This document shows positions 1-12,255 of a DNA stretch of 64,000 bases, in pieces. Position numbers and translations under genes: made by a program. Positions within the stretch are counted from its first letter, which is position 1. Each line of letters starts with the position of its first letter. Source of the DNA: a virus; IMG/VR virus record IMGVR_UViG_3300023178_000017, positions 41,280 through 105,279 of that record; one strand, 5' to 3'. The notes under the pieces were generated by a model, which had not been told where the DNA came from, made no database searches, and saw only the letters and a program-made list of their open reading frames with translations.

Positions 1-762
1 ATATGTAGATGGTGATCTGTGTTGATATGTGCTAGGTACACGATATGATCTTGGGTCTTGATATGTAGACGGCGATCTATGTTGATATGTGCTAGGTACA
101 CGATATGATCTAGGATCACGGTATGTAAATGGCGATCTATGGTTATATGTAAACGGTGACCTATGTTGATACGTAAACGGTGATCTATGTTGATAAGTCG
201 AAGGTTGTCTAGCGCCTCTAATATTAGGTTCTTGTGCTGATACAGGGTGTCTGTAACCTGCTGGTTGTTGTGCTGATCTAATATTAGGTTCTTGTGCTGA
301 TACAGGGTGTCTATAACCTGCTGGTTGTCTAGCATTACCAATTACTGGTTGTTGTGCTGATACAGGTGCTCTATATGCTGCTGGTTGTCTAGCATTTCTA
401 ATATTAGGTTCTTGTGCTGATCTGATATTAGGTTCTTGACCGCTTCTAATATTAGGTTCTTGTGCTGATCTAATATTAGGTTGTTGACCATTCGCAATAT
501 AAGGCGACTGGAAAGTAAACGGTTGCCTTGCGTTATTAGGTTGTTGAGCATTTGCAATATAAGGCGACTGGAAAGTAAACGGTTGCCTTGCGTTATTAGG
601 TTGTCTAGCATTTGCAATATAAGGTGACTGATATGTAAATGGATTCTGGAATGTAAATGGATTCTGGAATGTAAATGGATTCTGGAAAGTAAAAGGTGTC
701 TGCACAGGAACAGAAGCCTGTGTAATACCTTGAGCATTTGCTGGATAAAAACCTGTTGCCAT
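1..762 (-). CDS. Pro-punctuated repeat fibre protein B (3' end runs off the window); partner of 774..2549
   Basis: Not in the ORF track because it has no stop in the window. Hand translation from ATG 762 is open to position 1: MATGFYPANAQGITQASVPVQTP-FTFQNP x3-FTYQSP-YIANARQP-NNARQP...NIRSAQEP...STYQHRSP-FTYRDP-RSYRVP. Confidence 0.9.
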   Translation of the reverse strand, partial: MATGFYPANAQGITQASVPVQTPFTFQNPFTFQNPFTFQNPFTYQSPYIANARQPNNARQPFTFQSPYIANAQQPNNARQPFTFQSPYIANGQQPNIRSAQEPNIRSGQEPNIRSAQEPNIRNARQPAAYRAPVSAQQPVIGNARQPAGYRHPVSAQEPNIRSAQQPAGYRHPVSAQEPNIRGARQPSTYQHRSPFTYQHRSPFTYNHRSPFTYRDPRSYRVPSTYQHRSPSTYQDPRSYRVPSTYQHRSPSTY

Positions 763-773
763 TTTACTTTAGA

Positions 774-2549
774 TTACTTAGGTGATGGTTTAAAGAAGAA
801 GAAGTTGTGAGCTAATACACCATTTGCAAAGAAATTGTGATTGTCGCCAACGTTCTTCAAGTTATACACCTGTTGTGAATCTTTCTCCTCTATTTTAATT
901 ATTTCTAGTCCTATTTCTGTACCTAGTACAGCATCTGTCATGGTCATCAAATGATCACCGACTGCGATTTCTGAATTTACAAATTCATCTCCACCTTCTT
1001 CTTTGTGGAATTCTTTAAATTTCTCTAAGTTGATAACACCCCATTCACCATTCATTGTTCTAAATGGATGTTCTGAAGTTGTTTCAAGTATTCTACCGTC
1101 TGATAAATGTATCTCATGTATTGATACTTCTCTTGGTTGCATCAACTCTTCGACTACACCGATCTCTAATTTATTTGTCTCTTCGTTCCAAGTCATTACG
1201 TCTTGACCAACTTCTACTGTTTCAATTGGTACATGACTGCCATCGCCCAACCATATCATTGTGCCGGCAACAAAACATCCTTTGCCACCTCCAGGAATGT
1301 TACCAGGTATTGGACCAAACGGTTGATAGAAGTACACTGCTGGGAAGATAAATGGATATCTTGCTGTTTGTTGTGTAGTACTTGGTTGCCTTGCGTTATT
1401 TGGTTGCCTTGCGTTGTTTGGTTGCCTTGCGTTATTAGGTTGTCTAGCAGCAACTGGTTGTCTTGCCTGATACGTAAACGGCGCACGGAATGTAAATGGA
1501 GTCCTTGCGTTATTAGGTTGTCTTGCCTGATACGTAAACGGCGCACGGAATGTAAATGGAGTCCTTGCGTTATTAGGTTGTCTTGCCTGATACGTAAACG
1601 GCGATCTATGGTTATACGTAAACGGTGATCTGTGGTTATATGTAAACGGTGATCTGTGGTTATACGTATACGGTGATCTATGTTGATACGTAAATGGCAC
1701 CCTATATGATCTTGGATCACGGTATGTAAATGGTGATCTGTACGCATACGTAAACGGTATCTGATATGATCTTGGATCACGGTATGTAAATGGTGATCTA
1801 TGTTGATACGTAAATGGCACCCTATATGATCTTGGGTCTCTATATGTAAATGGTGACCTATGTTGATACGTAAACGGTGTTTGTGCGTTTCTGATATTTG
1901 GTTCTTGTGCAGACCTAATATTTGGTTCTTGACCGCTTCTAATATTAGGCTCTTGAGCAGCAACTGGATGTTGATAAGATGCTGGTGTTTGTCTATTTCT
2001 TATAAACGGAGTCTGAGCACTTACAGGGTGATTATACCCAGCTGGTGTTTGTGCGTTTCTGATAAACGGATTCTGTGCATTAACAGGATGTTGATAAGAA
2101 GCAGGTTGTTGTGCGTTTCTGATAAACGGATTCTGTGCATTTACTGGATGTCTATAGAATGCTGGTGTTTGTCTATTTCTTATAAACGGATTCTGTGCAT
2201 TAACAGGATGTCTATATGATACAGAGTTTTGTGCATTCGCAATATAAGGCGATTGAGCATTCGCAATATAAGGATACGGCTGTTGTGCATCTCTTATAAA
2301 TGGATTCTGTCTATTAGCAATATAAGGATACGGCTGTTGTGCATCTCTTATAAATGGATTCTGTCTATTAGCAATATAAGGATATGGTTGTTGTGTAGGT
2401 TGTTGACCTGATGCGTTATTCCACCCACTAGGAGTTTTAATGTAAATTTGATCTACATCTTTCCAAGTGTTTGAAGCAGTTTTAACCCATGCACCTTGGG
2501 TTGAATTCCAACCTGAGGGGGTTTTTACTTTCTGTGAGCCTGTCGCCAT
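774..2549 (-). CDS. Pro-punctuated repeat fibre protein A with C-terminal Hint (BIL-like) domain
   Basis: N-terminal WVK/YIK..GW motif, about 340 aa of 6/8-residue Pro-terminated modules, then the Hint domain and the tail FFFFKPSPK. Confidence 0.9.
   Translation of the reverse strand: MATGSQKVKTPSGWNSTQGAWVKTASNTWKDVDQIYIKTPSGWNNASGQQPTQQPYPYIANRQNPFIRDAQQPYPYIANRQNPFIRDAQQPYPYIANAQSPYIANAQNSVSYRHPVNAQNPFIRNRQTPAFYRHPVNAQNPFIRNAQQPASYQHPVNAQNPFIRNAQTPAGYNHPVSAQTPFIRNRQTPASYQHPVAAQEPNIRSGQEPNIRSAQEPNIRNAQTPFTYQHRSPFTYRDPRSYRVPFTYQHRSPFTYRDPRSYQIPFTYAYRSPFTYRDPRSYRVPFTYQHRSPYTYNHRSPFTYNHRSPFTYNHRSPFTYQARQPNNARTPFTFRAPFTYQARQPNNARTPFTFRAPFTYQARQPVAARQPNNARQPNNARQPNNARQPSTTQQTARYPFIFPAVYFYQPFGPIPGNIPGGGKGCFVAGTMIWLGDGSHVPIETVEVGQDVMTWNEETNKLEIGVVEELMQPREVSIHEIHLSDGRILETTSEHPFRTMNGEWGVINLEKFKEFHKEEGGDEFVNSEIAVGDHLMTMTDAVLGTEIGLEIIKIEEKDSQQVYNLKNVGDNHNFFANGVLAHNFFFFKPSPK
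804..1277 (-). other. Hint / bacterial intein-like domain (158 aa, no endonuclease)
   Basis: Block A CFVAGTMI (Cys425), block B TTSEHPF, block F/G VYNLKNVGDNHNFFANGVLAHN. The +1 residue is Phe. Confidence 0.9.
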
Positions 2550-2582
2550 TTAATCCTTTCTCGCTTTTTATCTATTTATCAA

Positions 2583-4880
2583 TTATGAATAAAGAATCCA
2601 TAGATCACCAACTGCTCCGTCACCTGAAGTAGGTGCAGAAGTTGATTGATATATGTTTCTCGCAACACCACCACTATTTGAAGCGTATGATGTTGAAATT
2701 TGTGATGCTCTAAAGTTTGCGTCTGTTAATGTTAACGAACCTGTAGAAGCACCAGTTGCAGTTGTTGTAGCAACTACAAACTCATCAGCACTTTCGTCCC
2801 AACCCATAAATGCGTTGTCGCCAGTTGAACCTCTTTCTAACACAAGACCAAGGTCATTTGAGTTAGCACCTGTGTTACCAGACCCTAATTCAATCAATGC
2901 ATCACTGATTGTTGTATTTGTAGAATCTACAGTTGATGTAGTACCATTAACTGTTAGGTTACCAGATAATGTTAAGTTACCAAATTGTACGTTACTTGTT
3001 GTAGCAACTGCCTGACCAATACTTATTTCACCTGAACTAATTGAGACACCAGTTCCTGCACTAATATGACTTCTAACTTCTGAAGCGCTTGGGCCAGTAT
3101 ATGTGATTACACCAGTAGATGAATTGTATGCTAAACTTCCATCACCACCTGAATCAGTAACAGAGATTGAACCTCTTGCATCTGAATCAGCATATTGTGT
3201 AATTGTTGTTGCAAGTGTTAAGGTACCATTTACATCATCGTATGTTGATGTGATGCCTGTACCTGCTGTTACTAAAGCATTTACTCTGTCATCAACTCTT
3301 TCGTCTGTGAAGTATAAGTTTGATGAACCTTCTGTTAACGAATCTGTATCTGGTAATAATGCATTAACTCTAGCATCTGCTCTAGCGTTTGTAAAGTAAA
3401 GGTTTGAACCTTCTGAAATATGAGCAGTTGTTGAAGGTATTGTAATAGCACCTGTACTTGAATCATATGCACCTGCACCAGAGTTTGTACTTAGAGATGC
3501 TCTTGCTCTAGCATCTGTATAGAATAAGTTTGTTGAACCTTCTGTAATGTCATCTGAATCACCACTTAGTTCACTTAATGCATCTGCTGTATCTACTTGT
3601 GCATCAACATAAGTTTTGACTGCTAACTGAGAAGGTACTAAAGTATCTGAAGCACTACCAAAATTAACATCTGTATCGATTGCATTTTGAACTCTAGCGT
3701 CTGCTCTTGCATTTGTAAAGTATAAGTTTGTAGAGCCTTCTGTTATTTCATCTGTATTGTCTTTACTTGCGACTTGTGAATCTACATATGCTTTAACTGA
3801 TTGTTGAGAAGGTATTCTTGTTTCACTATTAGACACCATATTATCTTCATCGATAAGAGCTGCTGTGATTCTAGCATCTGCTCTAGCGTCAGTGAAATAT
3901 AAGTTTGAACCTTCTGCTAAATCACCAGTGTCATGGTTAGCAATACTAGTAACTGTACCAGTTACGTTACCAGTTAAGTTTCCTTCGAATGTTCCTGCAA
4001 CAAAAGTTTCTGAACCGACTGTCCATTTATCGTTGGTCTCATCCCATAAGAATGTTTTTGCAGTTGAACTACCTCTAGTTACACTCAAACCAGCATCTTC
4101 TGTTGGTGAACCTGAAGTAAAGTTACTGTTTAATGCGATTGTGTTGTCTGCAAGGTTAATTGTCTCTGAGTTTACAGTTGTTGTTGTACCTGAAACTGTT
4201 AGTGAACCTGAGATTGTAACATCATCGTTAAGTGAAATAACACCATTTCCGTTACCACTCAATACTAAGTTAGTATCAGCTGATCTGGACACGATTTGAT
4301 CAACTGCAATATTGTTACTAAATGTGATGTTGTTTCCTGCACTGTTGGTAATATTGTTACCGTCTTCGATTTGAACTGGACCTTTAAGTGCAATAACACC
4401 TGATCCTGTTGCATCTAACTCTAAATCACCAGAACCACTTGTCTGTATAGACATGTTTTGGTTAGAGTCAGCACTAAAGACGATTGTACCTGAGTCATCT
4501 GAAATAACCTGTTGTCCGTTAACATATAAAGAACCAGGTCCAACGTATACGTCTTTCCATGTTCTACTTGATGAACCTAAGTCGTATGTGTTATCTGCGC
4601 TTGGTATGATGTTACCTGCAAATGTACCACCACCTAAGTATGATAATACATCTGAGTCGCCGTATTGGGCTGCACCTGCGATTGTTAGTGTGTTAGCAGA
4701 ATCATCGTATGTTAATGTGATGCCTGTACCTGCTGTTAAAAGTTGAGCGACTCTATCGTCTACTGACTCATCTAATGCTGATGCTGAAATTGAACCAACG
4801 TATGATCCAGAAGAGCTAATAACCTCTGTTCCACCGATTGACAGGCCGTTTTTAATATTAAAATTCTTTTCCCCTGCCAT
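2583..4880 (-). CDS. Tail fibre-like virion protein
   Basis: G/S/T/D-rich, with repeated TDxxTEGSxNLYFTxARA motifs and [12 protein letters not shown] segments; C-terminal APTSGDGAVGDLWILYS. Confidence 0.75.
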   Translation of the reverse strand: MAGEKNFNIKNGLSIGGTEVISSSGSYVGSISASALDESVDDRVAQLLTAGTGITLTYDDSANTLTIAGAAQYGDSDVLSYLGGGTFAGNIIPSADNTYDLGSSSRTWKDVYVGPGSLYVNGQQVISDDSGTIVFSADSNQNMSIQTSGSGDLELDATGSGVIALKGPVQIEDGNNITNSAGNNITFSNNIAVDQIVSRSADTNLVLSGNGNGVISLNDDVTISGSLTVSGTTTTVNSETINLADNTIALNSNFTSGSPTEDAGLSVTRGSSTAKTFLWDETNDKWTVGSETFVAGTFEGNLTGNVTGTVTSIANHDTGDLAEGSNLYFTDARADARITAALIDEDNMVSNSETRIPSQQSVKAYVDSQVASKDNTDEITEGSTNLYFTNARADARVQNAIDTDVNFGSASDTLVPSQLAVKTYVDAQVDTADALSELSGDSDDITEGSTNLFYTDARARASLSTNSGAGAYDSSTGAITIPSTTAHISEGSNLYFTNARADARVNALLPDTDSLTEGSSNLYFTDERVDDRVNALVTAGTGITSTYDDVNGTLTLATTITQYADSDARGSISVTDSGGDGSLAYNSSTGVITYTGPSASEVRSHISAGTGVSISSGEISIGQAVATTSNVQFGNLTLSGNLTVNGTTSTVDSTNTTISDALIELGSGNTGANSNDLGLVLERGSTGDNAFMGWDESADEFVVATTTATGASTGSLTLTDANFRASQISTSYASNSGGVARNIYQSTSAPTSGDGAVGDLWILYS

Positions 4881-5140
4881 TAGATAGTACCTCCGTCAAC
4901 TTGCGGTAATGAAAACTCACCCGTTGATGAGTTATAAGATAAATTCGTTTCTCCAGATGCTAATGAAATAGCACCTCTTGCTTTTGCGTTAGTAAAATAT
5001 TGATTCGTTGCACCTTCTGTGATGTCATCTGAGTCTAGTGCGGATACTGATCCAGCGGTAATTTTACCAGCACTAGTTATGACCTCTGTAGAACCGATGT
5101 TTAATCCGTATTCTATAACAAAATTATTTTGTGTTGCCAT
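4880..5140 (-). CDS. Small fibre-related virion protein
   Basis: N-terminus paralogous to 2583..4880; one TEGATNQYFT repeat; ends VDGGTI. Confidence 0.7.
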   Translation of the reverse strand: MATQNNFVIEYGLNIGSTEVITSAGKITAGSVSALDSDDITEGATNQYFTNAKARGAISLASGETNLSYNSSTGEFSLPQVDGGTI

Positions 5141-5228
5141 GGTTAGTGTGTCCTAATTGAGTGTATACAGTATTATTTAGTAGAGATTACTCTTCAAAAA
5201 GGTGGTTTAAACAAAATTTAAACAAAAA

Positions 5229-5969
5229 TCATACTTTAATTAATTGACGTGACCATTTGAATACAGTCGAGTTTGCAGAAGCAGGTGTAATCTTTAAAAC
5301 TACATTACCACTTTCAACTGCAACTGATACTGAATACAACGAACTATTTGTAACTATCTCAGCGTATTGTGTAAAGTAAGCAGTTGAACCGTCATGAATT
5401 ACAACAACTTCAGATGTGTGATAGTTTGTACCCTCTGTTGCTTGTAAAATATACTTAGCACTTCGATAATTTGATAAAGAAAACGAATCTAAGTCTGTTT
5501 CCGATGTTGTAGTGGTTGTTGTACCTGTATTACTATCAACAACCAAACTATCGATTGTTAATGTGTCTGAAGCAGTGATAGTAGTGCATGTTAAATCACC
5601 AACTTCTAAAGCTGCTTTAGCGTAACCTGTGCCTGAAGTGTTAACTGTTGTAGTAGGTTCTACTTCTAAACCGTCAAATAATTTCCATGTAGAATCACTA
5701 GCATCTCTAAAAAGACCTGTGAACTCATTGCCGCTGTCTGATAAACCATCATCGTAGTTACCATATAACCCTATGTCAACTGTATCTGAACTCGTGTTTG
5801 AGTTCGCAAGTTCGATCATTGAGTCTATAACAGACGTGGTTGTACTGTTAACGGTAGTTTGTGTACCATTAACTGTTAAATTGCCTGTGATTGTCGCATC
5901 GCCATCGACCAACAGGTCTTGACCTGTTTCTAGTCCTATGTCTGCATAAAATTTTGATTTTGTTGCCAT
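5229..5969 (-). CDS. Fibre-like virion structural protein
   Basis: [14 protein letters not shown] segment; C-terminal RSAKY..YHTSE..HDG domain shared with the next two genes. Confidence 0.7.
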   Translation of the reverse strand: MATKSKFYADIGLETGQDLLVDGDATITGNLTVNGTQTTVNSTTTSVIDSMIELANSNTSSDTVDIGLYGNYDDGLSDSGNEFTGLFRDASDSTWKLFDGLEVEPTTTVNTSGTGYAKAALEVGDLTCTTITASDTLTIDSLVVDSNTGTTTTTTSETDLDSFSLSNYRSAKYILQATEGTNYHTSEVVVIHDGSTAYFTQYAEIVTNSSLYSVSVAVESGNVVLKITPASANSTVFKWSRQLIKV

Positions 5970-6017
5970 AATAATCTCAAAAATATATTCTCAGTACTAT
6001 TTATGACTTTTTGGAAG

Positions 6018-9659: not shown

Positions 9660-10589
9660 CTAATTATTTAATTGGGAATATGGGACTTTTGTATGTATTT
9701 TTTCTACTGTAGTTGGATCAGTTTTTACGTATGCTTCTTCTAATTGTTTTACAGTACCGTCTGCATCTTTAACATAAACTTGTTTAACTTCTGCTACAGG
9801 ACCTATAGGTCTTCTGCTAGAATATGTTATCTGATATGTAAATGGTGATCTATGTTGATATGTAGTTTGTACAACAATGTTACCACTTCTTGTATTCTGA
9901 GCATTTGCAATATATGGTGAAGGTTGAGAAGCAGAAACCCTATATGTATCTGGCGATCTATGTTGATACGTAAATGGTATTCTATGTTGATAGAACGATG
10001 GTGATCTATGTTGATACGTAAATGGTGTTCTACCTGTTGTAGGATATGTTATAGGTTGCCTATGTTGATATGTTGTTGGTGTTCGCCCTGTTGCCTGATA
10101 TGTTGAAGGCTGTCTTGCATCTCTAATAAATGGATTCTGTCTATCAACAGGATGTCTGTAAGTTGTAGGTGAAGGTTTATTTCTTATAAACGGATTCTGT
10201 TTATTTACAGGATGTCTGTAATTAGCTGATATACGATAGCTACCAATTATCGGATTCTGTCTGTTAACAGGATGTTGATAAGCTGCTGGTTGACGTTGAT
10301 TTGCAACATAAGGTGATGGTCTATTTCTAATAAACGGATTCTGTTGTTGTGCAATGTATGGTGATTGAAATGGACTTCTTGCGATAGCAGCTGTCTGTGC
10401 GTTTGCTATGTAAGGAATAGGCACTCTAGTATTAGCAACTGTCTGAGCGTTTGCTGATGCACGGGCATTAGCAATGTACGGCACAGGCGTAGTACCGTTA
10501 GTAGAATTTTGTCTATTAGCAATATAAGGATACGGCTGTTGTCCTGGCGTTGCGTTTGAATTGCTATATGTTACTTGTACGGTTGGCAT
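9660..10589 (-). CDS. Pro-punctuated repeat fibre protein D; partner of 10591..12255
   Basis: Same module vocabulary (YIANAQ, FIRN, YQHRSP); C-terminal VKQVYVK..AYVK motif. Confidence 0.85.
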   Translation of the reverse strand: MPTVQVTYSNSNATPGQQPYPYIANRQNSTNGTTPVPYIANARASANAQTVANTRVPIPYIANAQTAAIARSPFQSPYIAQQQNPFIRNRPSPYVANQRQPAAYQHPVNRQNPIIGSYRISANYRHPVNKQNPFIRNKPSPTTYRHPVDRQNPFIRDARQPSTYQATGRTPTTYQHRQPITYPTTGRTPFTYQHRSPSFYQHRIPFTYQHRSPDTYRVSASQPSPYIANAQNTRSGNIVVQTTYQHRSPFTYQITYSSRRPIGPVAEVKQVYVKDADGTVKQLEEAYVKTDPTTVEKIHTKVPYSQLNN

Positions 10590-10590
10590 T

Positions 10591-12255
10591 TTATACTATT
10601 ATTGGCCCCCCACTACCTGCATTATATGCTGCTCTTAAACTTATGGGGCTTGATGACCAAGAACCGTTGAAGTATGAAGCTATATGAAAATATGTATAAT
10701 AAGTGTCTGTGCCTTTTGTTGCTTTTATTCCAAAATAAACATCATTTGATGTTAATTGTACTGGATTACCTGTGCTGTCGTATACACCCCACTTAAAAAA
10801 TCTAGCAGTGCGAGTACCATTAAATCCACCCCTTGAAGTTGAACCAGACCAGAAATTATAATATTGGCCTCTGGTTTTTCCACAAACATGTGGATAAAAT
10901 CCATAACTGTTTCCACCTCCTCCGTAACAATTTGTTTGAGCTTGAGTACCTGATACCGATTCACCACTTGCATAATATGCTACATCAAAATTCCAAGTAT
11001 CGTCAATTATACCATTAGCATTCAAATCGGTAATAGGCATATAAAATCTATAATAAAAACTCCAACCACTATTACTAAAAGAGTTATAATGACCATACGA
11101 TATTCTAAAAGCCCCTAAAGGATTTGTCTGAACAGTATTATTGTTAGCTGCAAAATCAAATTGCATATAACAACCACATTCGGTATGATTAAAACCAGGA
11201 TTACCAGTTGCTAATTGAAGAGTATTCCAACTTGGTACACTAAACATAGAAGCAGTTCCTGAAGGTGGGTCAGAATTTATATAATTCGTACTACCACCAA
11301 AAGGATATACATCCCAAACAGGATTACTTATACCTGAGCCCCAAGGTTGAGGGTTCGGTTGATTAGCTAAAGTTGCACTTGTTGCTGTTGAACTTCCAGA
11401 CAGTGCTGATTCGCCTACAATACCTTCATATGATGTTGGTACCTGAGCAGTCGATGGTGACTGATATATGTAAGGCGTTTGGCCTTGTGCTGAATAAGTC
11501 GAAGGCGATTGATAAATGTAAGGCGATGGTCTTTGCGCCTGATACGTAAACGGATTTTGATAAATCGATGGCACCCTATATGTTTGAGGACTTCTTTGTT
11601 GTGCTTGATAAGTTGAAGGCACTCTATAAGGTACAGGTTGTTGATTTGACTCCTGTGCGTTTATATTTGCTGGTGACTGGTGTTGATACGTAGTAGGTTG
11701 TTGTGCCTGATATGTTACAGGATTTCTGTAACTTCTTGGGTCACGATATGTACTAGGTGATCTATAAGCATAACTTACAGGATTTCTGTAACTTCTTGGG
11801 TCACGATATGTACTAGGTGATTGATGTTGATACGCAACTATAACCTGTGCATTTCTTGGGTCTCTATAAGTTGAAGGACTTTGATGTTGATACGTAAACG
11901 GTGTTTGTGCGTTTGCAGGATACGGATACGGATTCTGTCTATTAGCAATATAAGGTGATTGTGCATCGGCCTGATAAGTATACGTTTGTTGTGCGTTTCT
12001 TATAAAAGGATTTTGTCTCGATCTTATGTTAGGTTGCTGTGCGTTTCTTATAAAAGGATTTTGCCTATTAACAGGATTTCGATAAATTATTGGTTGTTGA
12101 TTCTGATAAGTCGAAGGAGACTGAAACGTATAAGGAACAATCGATGGTTGTTGTCTTATATTTGGTTCTTGAATGTTAGCAGGTTGCCTTGCTATGTAAG
12201 GTTGCTGAAAACTACCGCCATTTAAATTGTGTTTAATGTAAATTTTATCTGCCAT
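10591..12255 (-). CDS. Pro-punctuated repeat fibre protein C with aromatic-rich C-terminal head domain
   Basis: N-terminal KIYIK, about 260 aa of modules, then about 270 aa of non-repetitive W/Y/F/G/C-rich sequence. Confidence 0.85.
   Translation of the reverse strand: MADKIYIKHNLNGGSFQQPYIARQPANIQEPNIRQQPSIVPYTFQSPSTYQNQQPIIYRNPVNRQNPFIRNAQQPNIRSRQNPFIRNAQQTYTYQADAQSPYIANRQNPYPYPANAQTPFTYQHQSPSTYRDPRNAQVIVAYQHQSPSTYRDPRSYRNPVSYAYRSPSTYRDPRSYRNPVTYQAQQPTTYQHQSPANINAQESNQQPVPYRVPSTYQAQQRSPQTYRVPSIYQNPFTYQAQRPSPYIYQSPSTYSAQGQTPYIYQSPSTAQVPTSYEGIVGESALSGSSTATSATLANQPNPQPWGSGISNPVWDVYPFGGSTNYINSDPPSGTASMFSVPSWNTLQLATGNPGFNHTECGCYMQFDFAANNNTVQTNPLGAFRISYGHYNSFSNSGWSFYYRFYMPITDLNANGIIDDTWNFDVAYYASGESVSGTQAQTNCYGGGGNSYGFYPHVCGKTRGQYYNFWSGSTSRGGFNGTRTARFFKWGVYDSTGNPVQLTSNDVYFGIKATKGTDTYYTYFHIASYFNGSWSSSPISLRAAYNAGSGGPIIV

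What the first reader, a model, noticed from the sequence alone, without database searches (positions are those of the whole stretch)
804..1320. Non-splicing Hint domain at the predicted fibre tip, next to the partner's N-terminus
Seen: an intact Hint domain (Cys1, TxxH, terminal His-Asn) follows the linker PGGGKG. The +1 residue is Phe and only 9 residues follow it. Established: canonical splicing needs Cys/Ser/Thr at +1, whereas BIL and Hedgehog Hint domains cleave or transfer the N-terminal thioester to another nucleophile. Inference: antiparallel pairing places B's N-terminus (ATGFYP) beside A's Gly424 thioester. The Hint domain may therefore ligate A to B into a covalent hairpin, attach a small molecule to the tip, or act as a self-removing chaperone.
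Basis: partly seen in the sequence, partly recalled or inferred. Interest (0 to 1): 0.85.

Follow-up and report, generated by a model that had tools for sequence, protein, structure and literature searches.

The report
Self-excising intein-like domain on phage fibre
A repeat-rich fibre protein of an uncultured marine T4-like phage carries, just before its last nine residues, a small intein-like (Hint/BIL) domain that most likely cuts itself out after translation; most related phages have the same protein without it, so it looks like an optional self-removing insert rather than a device that welds the fibre's two chains together.

Summary
Residues 425-582 of the 591-aa protein A (window 774-2549, minus strand) are a complete Hint domain. 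It has Cys1 after a Gly linker, a block-B TxxH, a terminal His-Asn, Phe at +1 and a 9-residue tail. The fold model is confident. Its best structural matches are the Tetrahymena BUBL1 BIL2 domain, mini-inteins and the C. thermocellum BIL domain.

In 80 related viral loci sharing A's conserved N-terminal domain:
- 25 carry the Hint.
- 33 lack it and end in the same Gly run followed directly by a short tail, an "empty site".
- 22 mostly carry a globular C-terminal domain instead (two of them are cut or doubtful ORFs).

Partner gene B follows both Hint+ and Hint-less A genes. Its N-terminus shows no Hint-specific feature.

I read the domain as an optional type-A BIL-like element that excises itself through a thioester and Asn cyclisation. 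It may re-attach the Lys-bearing tail. Covalent A-to-B ligation is not supported.

This scan has already noted terminal Gly-Hint-Lys modules on phage fibres in at least 77 other genomes. I found no paper describing them.

The parts
774..2549 (-). Gene for protein A, 591 aa: conserved N-terminal domain, 334-aa repeat region, linker, Hint, 9-aa tail.
   Evidence: ORF list; translation checked.
2388..2549 (-). N-terminal domain of A, residues 1-54. It is Lys-rich and 78-88% identical across relatives. It is presumably the end that attaches to the virion.
   Evidence: Alignment A5. The scan found 180 viral-contig loci encoding it; 80 were kept.
1386..2387 (-). Repeat region of A, residues 55-388. 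It consists of Pro-delimited 6/8/10-residue segments whose length order mirrors that of partner B.
1278..1385 (-). Aromatic and Gly-rich linker, residues 389-424, ending in GGGKG. Gly424 is the residue whose carbonyl would become the thioester.
   Evidence: Gly-1 is invariant in the family.
804..1277 (-). Hint (type-A BIL-like) domain, residues 425-582, 158 aa, 17.8 kDa. No homing endonuclease.
1275..1277 (-). Cys425, the Hint residue 1 nucleophile.
   Evidence: invariant.
1068..1079 (-). Block-B TxxH motif, T491-S-E-H494.
   Evidence: Thr and His invariant.
804..809 (-). Terminal His581-Asn582 (block G), the site of Asn cyclisation.
   Evidence: invariant.
774..803 (-). C-extein tail of 9 residues (+1 Phe, Lys at +5 and +9) plus the stop codon.
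   Evidence: All 23 distinct Hint+ tails contain Lys and none starts with Cys, Ser or Thr.
1..762 (-). N-terminal 254 codons of partner gene B. B is 376 aa in full and continues below the window to G000:40911. It is a repeat protein with no Lys and no Cys.

Best explanation
The Hint domain is an optional, self-excising type-A BIL-like element. It is inserted between the terminal Gly run and the short C-terminal tail of fibre-like protein A.

Proposed steps, inferred from the family's known chemistry:
1. Cys425 attacks the Gly424 carbonyl (N-S acyl shift), giving a thioester.
2. Asn582 cyclises and frees the 9-residue tail.
3. The thioester is resolved in one of two ways. Hydrolysis would leave mature A ending at Gly424. 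Aminolysis by the freed tail, through its alpha-amine as proposed for type-A BILs or its Lys epsilon-amine as in BUBL BIL2, would leave mature A as Gly424 plus tail.

Either way the 17.8-kDa domain leaves. Mature A then resembles the Hint-less orthologues that most related phages encode. The domain is not needed for A:B pairing and does not join A to B. Its catalytic residues may be conserved for the same reason as in inteins: a dead copy would leave a bulky domain on the variable end of the fibre.

Shown here: the domain, its residues, the empty-site alleles, the distribution and the synteny. Inferred: that processing happens, and which nucleophile resolves the thioester.
For: 1. The Hint is complete, with a confident fold, and is closest to BIL domains and mini-inteins.
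2. Gly-1, Cys1, TxxH and His-Asn are invariant across relatives only 30-53% identical in the Hint. A's N-terminal domain stays 78-88% identical.
3. There is presence/absence polymorphism at one site. Of 80 loci with A's N-terminal domain, 25 (18 distinct proteins) carry the Hint. Another 33 (21 distinct) end in a Gly run followed directly by a 3-17 residue tail.
4. Hint-less C-termini align across the junction of N-flank plus tail of Hint+ alleles, including a Gly run followed by Phe.
5. len(A) minus len(B) is 199-218 in Hint+ loci and 41-49 in 13 of 14 Hint-less loci with a B partner (one outlier at 89). The difference is about the size of the Hint.
6. B and the downstream cassette are present in both types.
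7. On a tree of flanking sequence the Hint label needs at least 3 gains or losses on well-supported branches.
8. +1 is never Cys, Ser or Thr (F12, G4, L2, M2, Y2, K1). All 23 distinct tails hold a Lys, against 3 of 12 Hint-less tails.
9. Literature: type-A BILs have His-Asn, lack a +1 nucleophile, mostly cleave, and can splice by aminolysis after Asn cyclisation (PMC4031507, PMC7664689). BIL2 of BUBL1 forms a Lys isopeptide (PMC8616854).
Against: - No protein-level data exist. No cultured phage in the collection searched carries this protein, so processing itself is untested.
- A simple stop codon before Cys425 would remove a purely parasitic element. Its long persistence, with Hint divergence down to 30%, therefore hints that either the tail must be re-attached or the domain has a use.
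- The block-F position that is Asp in most class-1 inteins is Asn or His here. The consequence is unknown.
- The flank tree was a quick search. Fibre genes also recombine, so the count of gains and losses is rough.
- The Lys-in-tail contrast is not corrected for relatedness.
Confidence: 0.6

Rival explanations
1. Adaptive self-removing cap or chaperone. The Hint is kept because it helps. It might hold A's distal end soluble or in register while the A:B repeat pairing forms, or block premature assembly. It then cleaves off at Gly424. This would be a functional analogue of the S74 intramolecular chaperones of phage fibres.
For: - Catalytic residues have been conserved over a long time and no nonsense-mediated loss is seen.
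- One clade of 11 loci is uniformly Hint+.
- The same subfamily caps other tail-like proteins. P0045, for example, has tail-protein PHROG hits and two terminal Hints.
- 73 of 297 Hint ends in the representative set are terminal with a tail of 30 residues or fewer.
Against: - Most orthologues with the same B partner do without it.
- A cap that only needs N-terminal cleavage would not need the invariant terminal Asn or a tail.
Confidence: 0.2
2. Thioester transfer in trans. The Gly424 thioester is captured by an amine outside A's own tail. Candidates are a Lys of another virion protein (for instance the Lys-rich N-terminal domain of another A copy), a host-surface amine or a small molecule. The result would be a covalent link at the fibre tip, in the manner of the BIL2 domain of the Tetrahymena BUBL (BIL-ubiquitin-like) locus or of Hedgehog.
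For: - The top structural match is BIL2, which conjugates its N-extein's C-terminal Gly to Lys of other proteins (PMC8616854).
- A Gly-Gly-type acyl donor sits on a flexible linker.
- Lys is almost absent from the repeats of A and B but conserved in A's N-terminal domain and in every tail.
Against: - Hint-less orthologues function without any such chemistry.
- No conserved acceptor has been identified.
- A thioester is unlikely to survive on free virions.
- No sterol-recognition-like region follows the Hint.
Confidence: 0.08
3. The Hint ligates Gly424 of A to the alpha-amine of B's N-terminus, making a covalent antiparallel hairpin.
For: - The mirrored segment order places B's N-terminus at A's Hint end.
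- Aminolysis of a BIL thioester by a free alpha-amine is the mechanism proposed for type-A BIL splicing (PMC4031507).
Against: - B follows Hint-less A genes just as regularly.
- B's N-terminus varies. It is Met-Pro in most loci and Met-Ala here, and the motif seen here recurs in Hint-less loci.
- The invariant terminal Asn and the Lys-bearing tail have no role in this scheme.
Confidence: 0.05
4. Uncleaved, permanent tip domain. The Hint stays on the fibre and serves as a binding or structural module.
For: The same slot holds globular C-terminal domains in most of 22 other loci. In the second repeat pair of this window, the 554-aa protein has a 270-aa C-terminal domain in that position.
Against: - Only the catalytic residues are invariant while the surface diverges to 30% identity.
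- The loci with globular domains lack B and have a different small downstream gene, so the slots are not equivalent.
Confidence: 0.07

Closest known systems
Type-A bacterial intein-like (BIL) domains (Amitai 2003; Dassa 2004; C. thermocellum BIL, PDB 2lwy)
   Same: Hint fold, Cys1, block-B TxxH, C-terminal His-Asn and no nucleophile at +1. It sits in a variable region of a surface-type protein. It is the best sequence hit in PDB and a high structural hit.
   Different: The host is a phage fibre-like repeat protein. The C-extein is only 4-29 residues and always holds a Lys. Natural empty-site alleles exist. Activity is untested.
BIL2 domain of the Tetrahymena thermophila BUBL1 locus (PDB 6tmm, 6y75)
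   Same: It is the best structural match, E 2.6e-11 and TM 0.72. It has Cys1 and a terminal Asn. Its N-extein ends in Gly. It forms a Lys epsilon-amine isopeptide (PMC8616854), which would explain the conserved Lys in the tails here.
   Different: The N-extein here is not ubiquitin-like. Sequence identity is only 23-24%. No acceptor protein is known here.
Class-1 mini-inteins (Ssp DnaB, Npu DnaB, cyanophage-like gp41-1)
   Same: Same fold and blocks A, B, F and G. There is no endonuclease. Alleles of the host gene without the element exist at the same site.
   Different: +1 is Phe and is never Cys, Ser or Thr in 23 distinct alleles. The insertion lies in a poorly conserved C-terminal tail, not in a conserved active site.
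Hedgehog C-terminal autoprocessing (Hog) domain (PDB 1at0)
   Same: Gly-Cys-Phe cleavage site, thioester at a C-terminal Gly, and Hint fold (E 7.9e-7).
   Different: No sterol-recognition region follows the Hint. A terminal His-Asn is present. Similarity is weaker than to BILs and inteins.
Peptidase S74 intramolecular chaperone domains of phage fibres and spikes (K1F endosialidase, T5 pb1). This comparison rests on my own knowledge.
   Same: A C-terminal domain of a phage fibre that removes itself after translation. The likeness is functional only.
   Different: The fold and chemistry are unrelated (Ser-Lys dyad). No sequence hit was found. S74 domains drive trimerisation, and nothing of the kind is shown here.

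Membership tests
Hint superfamily | Hint beta-fold with blocks A, B, F and G | tested here: met
   AF2 model pLDDT 88.4. Foldseek gives 63 PDB matches at E<=0.001; every listed match is an intein, BIL or Hedgehog domain. PF14890 scores 38.9 bits against a cut-off of 35.8.
Hint superfamily | Nucleophile at residue 1 and block-B Thr-x-x-His | tested here: met
   Cys425 and T491..H494. They are invariant in 14 relatives.
Type-A BIL domain | C-terminal His-Asn | tested here: met
   H581-N582, invariant in the family. 297 of 316 C-termini in the wider representative set end in His-Asn.
Type-A BIL domain | No Cys, Ser or Thr at +1 | tested here: met
   +1 is Phe here. In 23 distinct alleles it is F12, G4, L2, M2, Y2, K1.
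Type-A BIL domain | Autocatalytic N- and C-terminal cleavage, with minor splicing | not testable with these tools
   This needs expression and mass spectrometry. The literature basis is PMC4031507 and PMC7664689.
Type-A BIL domain | Type-specific sequence motifs of Amitai et al. 2003 | tested here: inconclusive
   The best PDB sequence hit is a BIL (2lwy, E 4.8e-6), but mini-inteins score almost as well. No BIL-specific profile was available.
Class-1 intein | Cys, Ser or Thr at +1 for trans-esterification | tested here: not met
Class-1 intein | Element-free alleles of the host gene at the same site | tested here: met
   33 of 80 loci end in the Gly run plus tail without a Hint, and they align across the junction.
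Hedgehog Hog domain | Sterol-recognition region following the Hint module | tested here: not met
   Only 9 residues follow Asn582.
BUBL-type BIL (BIL2) | Transfer of the N-extein Gly to a Lys epsilon-amine | tested here: inconclusive
   Lys is present in all 23 Hint+ tails against 3 of 12 Hint-less tails. +1 is Lys in 157 of 297 Hints of the wider subfamily. The chemistry is untested and relatedness is not controlled.
BUBL-type BIL (BIL2) | Ubiquitin-like N-extein | tested here: not met
   The N-extein is a Pro/Gln/Asn/Arg/Tyr repeat followed by a Gly linker.
Pretoxin HINT (PT-HINT) | Toxin domain downstream of the Hint | tested here: not met
   The PF07591 hit is below its cut-off, and only 9 residues follow the Hint.
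Peptidase S74 intramolecular chaperone | S74 domain sequence or fold | tested here: not met
   No such Pfam or PHROG hit. The fold is Hint.

The most novel reading that the evidence does not exclude
The Gly-Hint-Lys module performs Lys-directed 'isopeptide splicing'. The Gly424 thioester would be attacked by a Lys epsilon-amine, either of the mini C-extein or, in trans, of another virion or host protein. That would give the fibre tip a branched or cross-linked end. It would be a BUBL-like, ATP-free conjugation chemistry used by phages, and the Hint+ and Hint-less natural alleles would offer a ready test system.
Probability: 0.15. Interest if true: 0.75.

Novelty: new variant of a known kind. 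Interest (0 to 1): 0.5.

Why it matters
The biological role of BIL-type Hint domains is still unclear more than twenty years after their discovery. Maturation of phage fibres through thioester chemistry appears in no paper I could find. This locus offers natural Hint+ and Hint-less alleles of one protein with the same partner gene. That gives a direct experimental handle on three questions:
- Does the element splice, cleave or conjugate?
- Does the conserved tail Lys act as the nucleophile?
- Does the element cost or benefit the phage?

The result also removes a tempting but unsupported idea, the covalent A-B hairpin, from the separate and more striking finding that A and B have mirror-image repeat architectures.

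Tried and rejected
- Complex prediction on A residues 317-591 with B residues 1-94, both given as alignments, returned no answer (score 0.00). It counts neither for nor against binding.
The context of the metagenomic proteins P0001-P0015 could therefore not be read directly, and I used the search for related loci instead.
- Searches of the cultured-phage collection gave nothing useful. megablast of window 1-6000 found no match. tblastn of whole A found no match. tblastn of the Hint alone found only distant inteins in helicase and terminase genes. One call failed on a frame error.
- The first IMG/VR scan, using patterns from the single sequence, found only distant inteins. Patterns from a family alignment were needed.
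- Literature searches for Hint or intein-like domains on phage fibres returned only inteins in terminases and unrelated papers.
- Read-through or frameshift fusion of A to B was rejected. An 11-nt spacer separates them and they are in different frames. The gap varies from -1 to 51 nt in relatives.
- Recent foreign origin was not supported by composition. Hint GC is 0.371 and window GC is 0.364.
- The Hedgehog-type sterol transfer, pretoxin-HINT and S74 chaperone readings failed their defining features (see the membership test).
- The weak Pfam 'Cementoin' hits in the repeats are below the cut-off. I took them as a repeat-composition artefact.

Full report
WHAT IS THERE. The window is the right-hand 64 kb of a 105-kb IMG/VR viral contig. 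The phage is T4-like: downstream in the direction of transcription lie the terminase, sheath, tube, portal and prohead genes. Its large terminase is 57% identical to that of 'Phage C48C1' and about 46% identical to those of cyanomyophages. No cultured phage in the collection carries the protein studied here.

On the minus strand, 774-2549 encodes protein A, 591 aa. Its parts are:
- a Lys-rich N-terminal domain, residues 1-54;
- 334 residues of Pro-delimited 6/8/10-residue repeats;
- a 36-residue aromatic and Gly-rich linker ending in GGGKG;
- a 158-residue Hint domain, Cys425 to Asn582;
- a 9-residue tail that starts with Phe.

Eleven bases downstream, in another frame, starts partner gene B. 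B is 376 aa and its last third lies below the window.

The Hint assignment rests on several lines:
- Pfam Intein_splicing is above its gathering score when the domain is scanned alone (38.9 against 35.8). All 14 relatives tested hit the same model. Within the repeat-rich full protein it is just below the cut-off.
- The best PDB sequence hit is the C. thermocellum BIL domain.
- The AlphaFold2 model is confident, with pLDDT 88.4.
- The best structural matches are BIL2 of the Tetrahymena BUBL1 locus, then mini-inteins, the Cth BIL domain and, further down, Hedgehog.
- In relatives only 34-51% identical, the invariant positions are Gly-1, Cys1, Phe2, the Thr and His of block B and the terminal His-Asn, plus a few structural residues.

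THE FAMILY, AND THE KEY RESULT. Protein searches found relatives in Tara and ENA marine metagenomes. Pattern scans of IMG/VR found 24 related loci. All show the same order: the N-terminal domain (where the ORF is complete), repeats, a Gly run, the Hint, His-Asn, and a tail of 4-13 residues. Gene order downstream is conserved: A, then B, then a roughly 510-aa protein with a GT8-like half, then proteins of 183, about 240 and about 280 aa. In this genome the 245-aa member and a further 231-aa gene are 2OG-Fe(II) oxygenases.

I then searched with A's N-terminal domain alone, which is 78-88% identical across relatives. The scan found 180 loci and 80 were kept. The A proteins in them have three kinds of C-terminal end:
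- 25 loci (18 distinct proteins) carry the Hint.
- 33 loci (21 distinct) have no Hint and end in an aromatic patch, a Gly run and a 3-17-residue tail.
- 22 loci (13 distinct) mostly carry an unrelated globular C-terminal domain. Two of these are cut or doubtful ORFs, and one globular-ended locus (L179) was counted with the 33.

The Hint-less short ends align across the junction of N-flank plus tail of the Hint+ proteins. Several read 'Gly run then Phe', exactly the -1 and +1 context of the Hint. The +1 Phe is therefore host sequence, not an adaptation of the domain. The Hint-less alleles look like empty sites, or equally like the product the element would leave after splicing.

Length bookkeeping agrees. 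len(A) minus len(B) is 199-218 in 13 Hint+ loci. It is 41-49 in 13 of the 14 Hint-less loci with a B partner, with one outlier at 89. The difference is about the size of the Hint.

On a quick tree of flanking sequence, made from the last 200 residues of the upstream fibre protein plus A's N-terminal domain, one clade of 11 is uniformly Hint+. Elsewhere Hint+ and Hint-less alleles are interleaved. At least three changes are forced by well-supported branches. The careful tree search did not finish, and fibre genes recombine, so this count is rough.

The Hint tree broadly follows the flank tree within the main clade. Hints are only 30-53% identical to the one here. This suggests long residence with selection on catalysis. 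GC content shows no sign of recent import.

WHAT THIS SAYS ABOUT THE A-B LIGATION IDEA. The geometric premise is reasonable. Cutting B at each Pro gives 47 segment lengths that equal those of A read backwards. Reverse order beats forward order and shuffles in 11 of 13 related pairs. The two lengths co-vary tightly. B's N-terminus therefore plausibly lies at A's Hint end, although this remains an inference.

The ligation itself is not supported:
- B follows Hint-less A genes just as regularly.
- B's N-terminus is Met-Pro in most loci and Met-Ala here. The motif seen here recurs in Hint-less loci, so nothing about it tracks the Hint.
- B has no Cys, and in 8 of 13 loci no Lys.
- The scheme leaves the invariant terminal Asn and the tail without a role.
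- A complex prediction gave no answer either way.

MOST LIKELY MECHANISM. The residue set is that of a type-A BIL domain: Cys1, His-Asn, and no +1 nucleophile. According to the literature these domains behave as follows (PMC4031507, PMC7664689):
- They form the N-terminal thioester.
- They cleave the C-terminal junction by Asn cyclisation.
- They yield mainly cleavage products.
- They can splice when the freed alpha-amine of the C-fragment attacks the thioester.

I therefore expect the 17.8-kDa domain to leave A. That would give either A(1-424) or A(1-424) with the tail re-attached (masses).

One detail points to a variation. All 23 distinct Hint+ tails contain a Lys, usually as the last or next-to-last residue, against 3 of 12 Hint-less tails. 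In a census of 163 representative proteins with 420 Hint domains of this subfamily, +1 is Lys in 157 of 297 cases. Many proteins end simply in His-Asn-Lys. The closest structure, BIL2, is reported to make a Lys epsilon-amine isopeptide with the C-terminal Gly of its N-extein (PMC8616854). A Lys-directed resolution of the thioester is therefore a live possibility. The statistics are not corrected for relatedness, and the chemistry is untested.

SELFISH OR USEFUL. The presence/absence pattern, the empty sites, and the fact that only catalytic residues are conserved fit an intein-like passenger that must stay active to be harmless. Against a purely parasitic reading, a stop codon before Cys425 would delete it unless the tail matters. 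One whole clade also keeps it. I give 0.6 to 'optional self-excising element, outcome cleavage or tail re-ligation'. I give 0.2 to an adaptive cap or chaperone role, and small shares to trans-conjugation, A-B ligation and an uncleaved tip domain.

COMPARISON AND NOVELTY. The domain meets the tested features of a type-A BIL. It fails the +1 criterion of class-1 inteins, the sterol-recognition region of Hedgehog, the toxin context of PT-HINT and the fold of S74 chaperones (see the membership test). New relative to described BILs:
- the host, a phage fibre-like protein;
- the Gly-Hint-Lys arrangement with a minimal C-extein;
- the natural empty-site alleles.

The held literature has no description of this. 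Earlier agents of this scan have noted terminal Hint domains on phage fibres in at least 77 other genomes, with similar conclusions. The class is therefore recurrent in the scan's data.

LIMITS. The tree is a quick one. Alignments of repeat proteins are only approximate.

Noticed in passing
window 1-2549 (B continues to G000:40911): The repeat regions of A and B are both 334 residues long. Their 47 Pro-delimited segment lengths are exact mirror images. Reverse order beats forward order in 11 of 13 related pairs, and len(A)-len(B) is nearly constant across a two-fold range of lengths. This suggests an antiparallel heterodimeric fibre of a kind I do not know.
   Followed up: partly
window 9660-12255, minus strand: A second repeat pair is present. 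The 554-aa protein (10591-12255) has similar repeats followed by a ~270-aa C-terminal domain with no Pfam hit, at the position where A has the Hint. Its 309-aa neighbour (9660-10589) is the shorter partner.
   Followed up: partly
G000:C1:36440-40881 (just below the window; L002:12441-16882): A conserved cassette lies downstream of B. It comprises a 534-aa protein with a GT8-like glycosyltransferase half, a 183-aa protein, two 2OG-Fe(II) oxygenase-family proteins (245 and 231 aa) and a 282-aa protein matching phrog_7084. It follows B in every related locus examined, which suggests hydroxylation or glycosylation of the Pro-rich repeat proteins.
   Followed up: partly
proteins P0008-P0163: There is a large metagenomic subfamily of near-identical-type Hint domains. 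It includes arrays of up to 7 tandem Hints joined by 0-5 residues (P0016, P0018). It also includes ~755-771-aa proteins ending in two tandem Hints and a single Lys. +1 is Lys in 53% of 297 domains, and 73 domains are terminal.
   Followed up: partly
loci L141, L152, L157, L164, L185, L190, L196 and similar: A-orthologues with a globular C-terminal domain instead of the Gly end are not followed by a B partner. They are followed by a ~86-100-aa ORF, possibly a fibre chaperone. The C-terminal slot of A therefore switches between two architectures.
   Followed up: no
window 2583-4880, minus strand, and all 80 related loci: The fibre gene upstream of A ends in a strongly conserved C-terminal motif directly before the equally conserved N-terminal domain of A. 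This is consistent with a docking pair.
   Followed up: no
window 342-737, 1256-1963 and others: Long alternative-frame ORFs lie inside the repeat genes on both strands. They are by-products of the nucleotide repeats, not genes.
   Followed up: no
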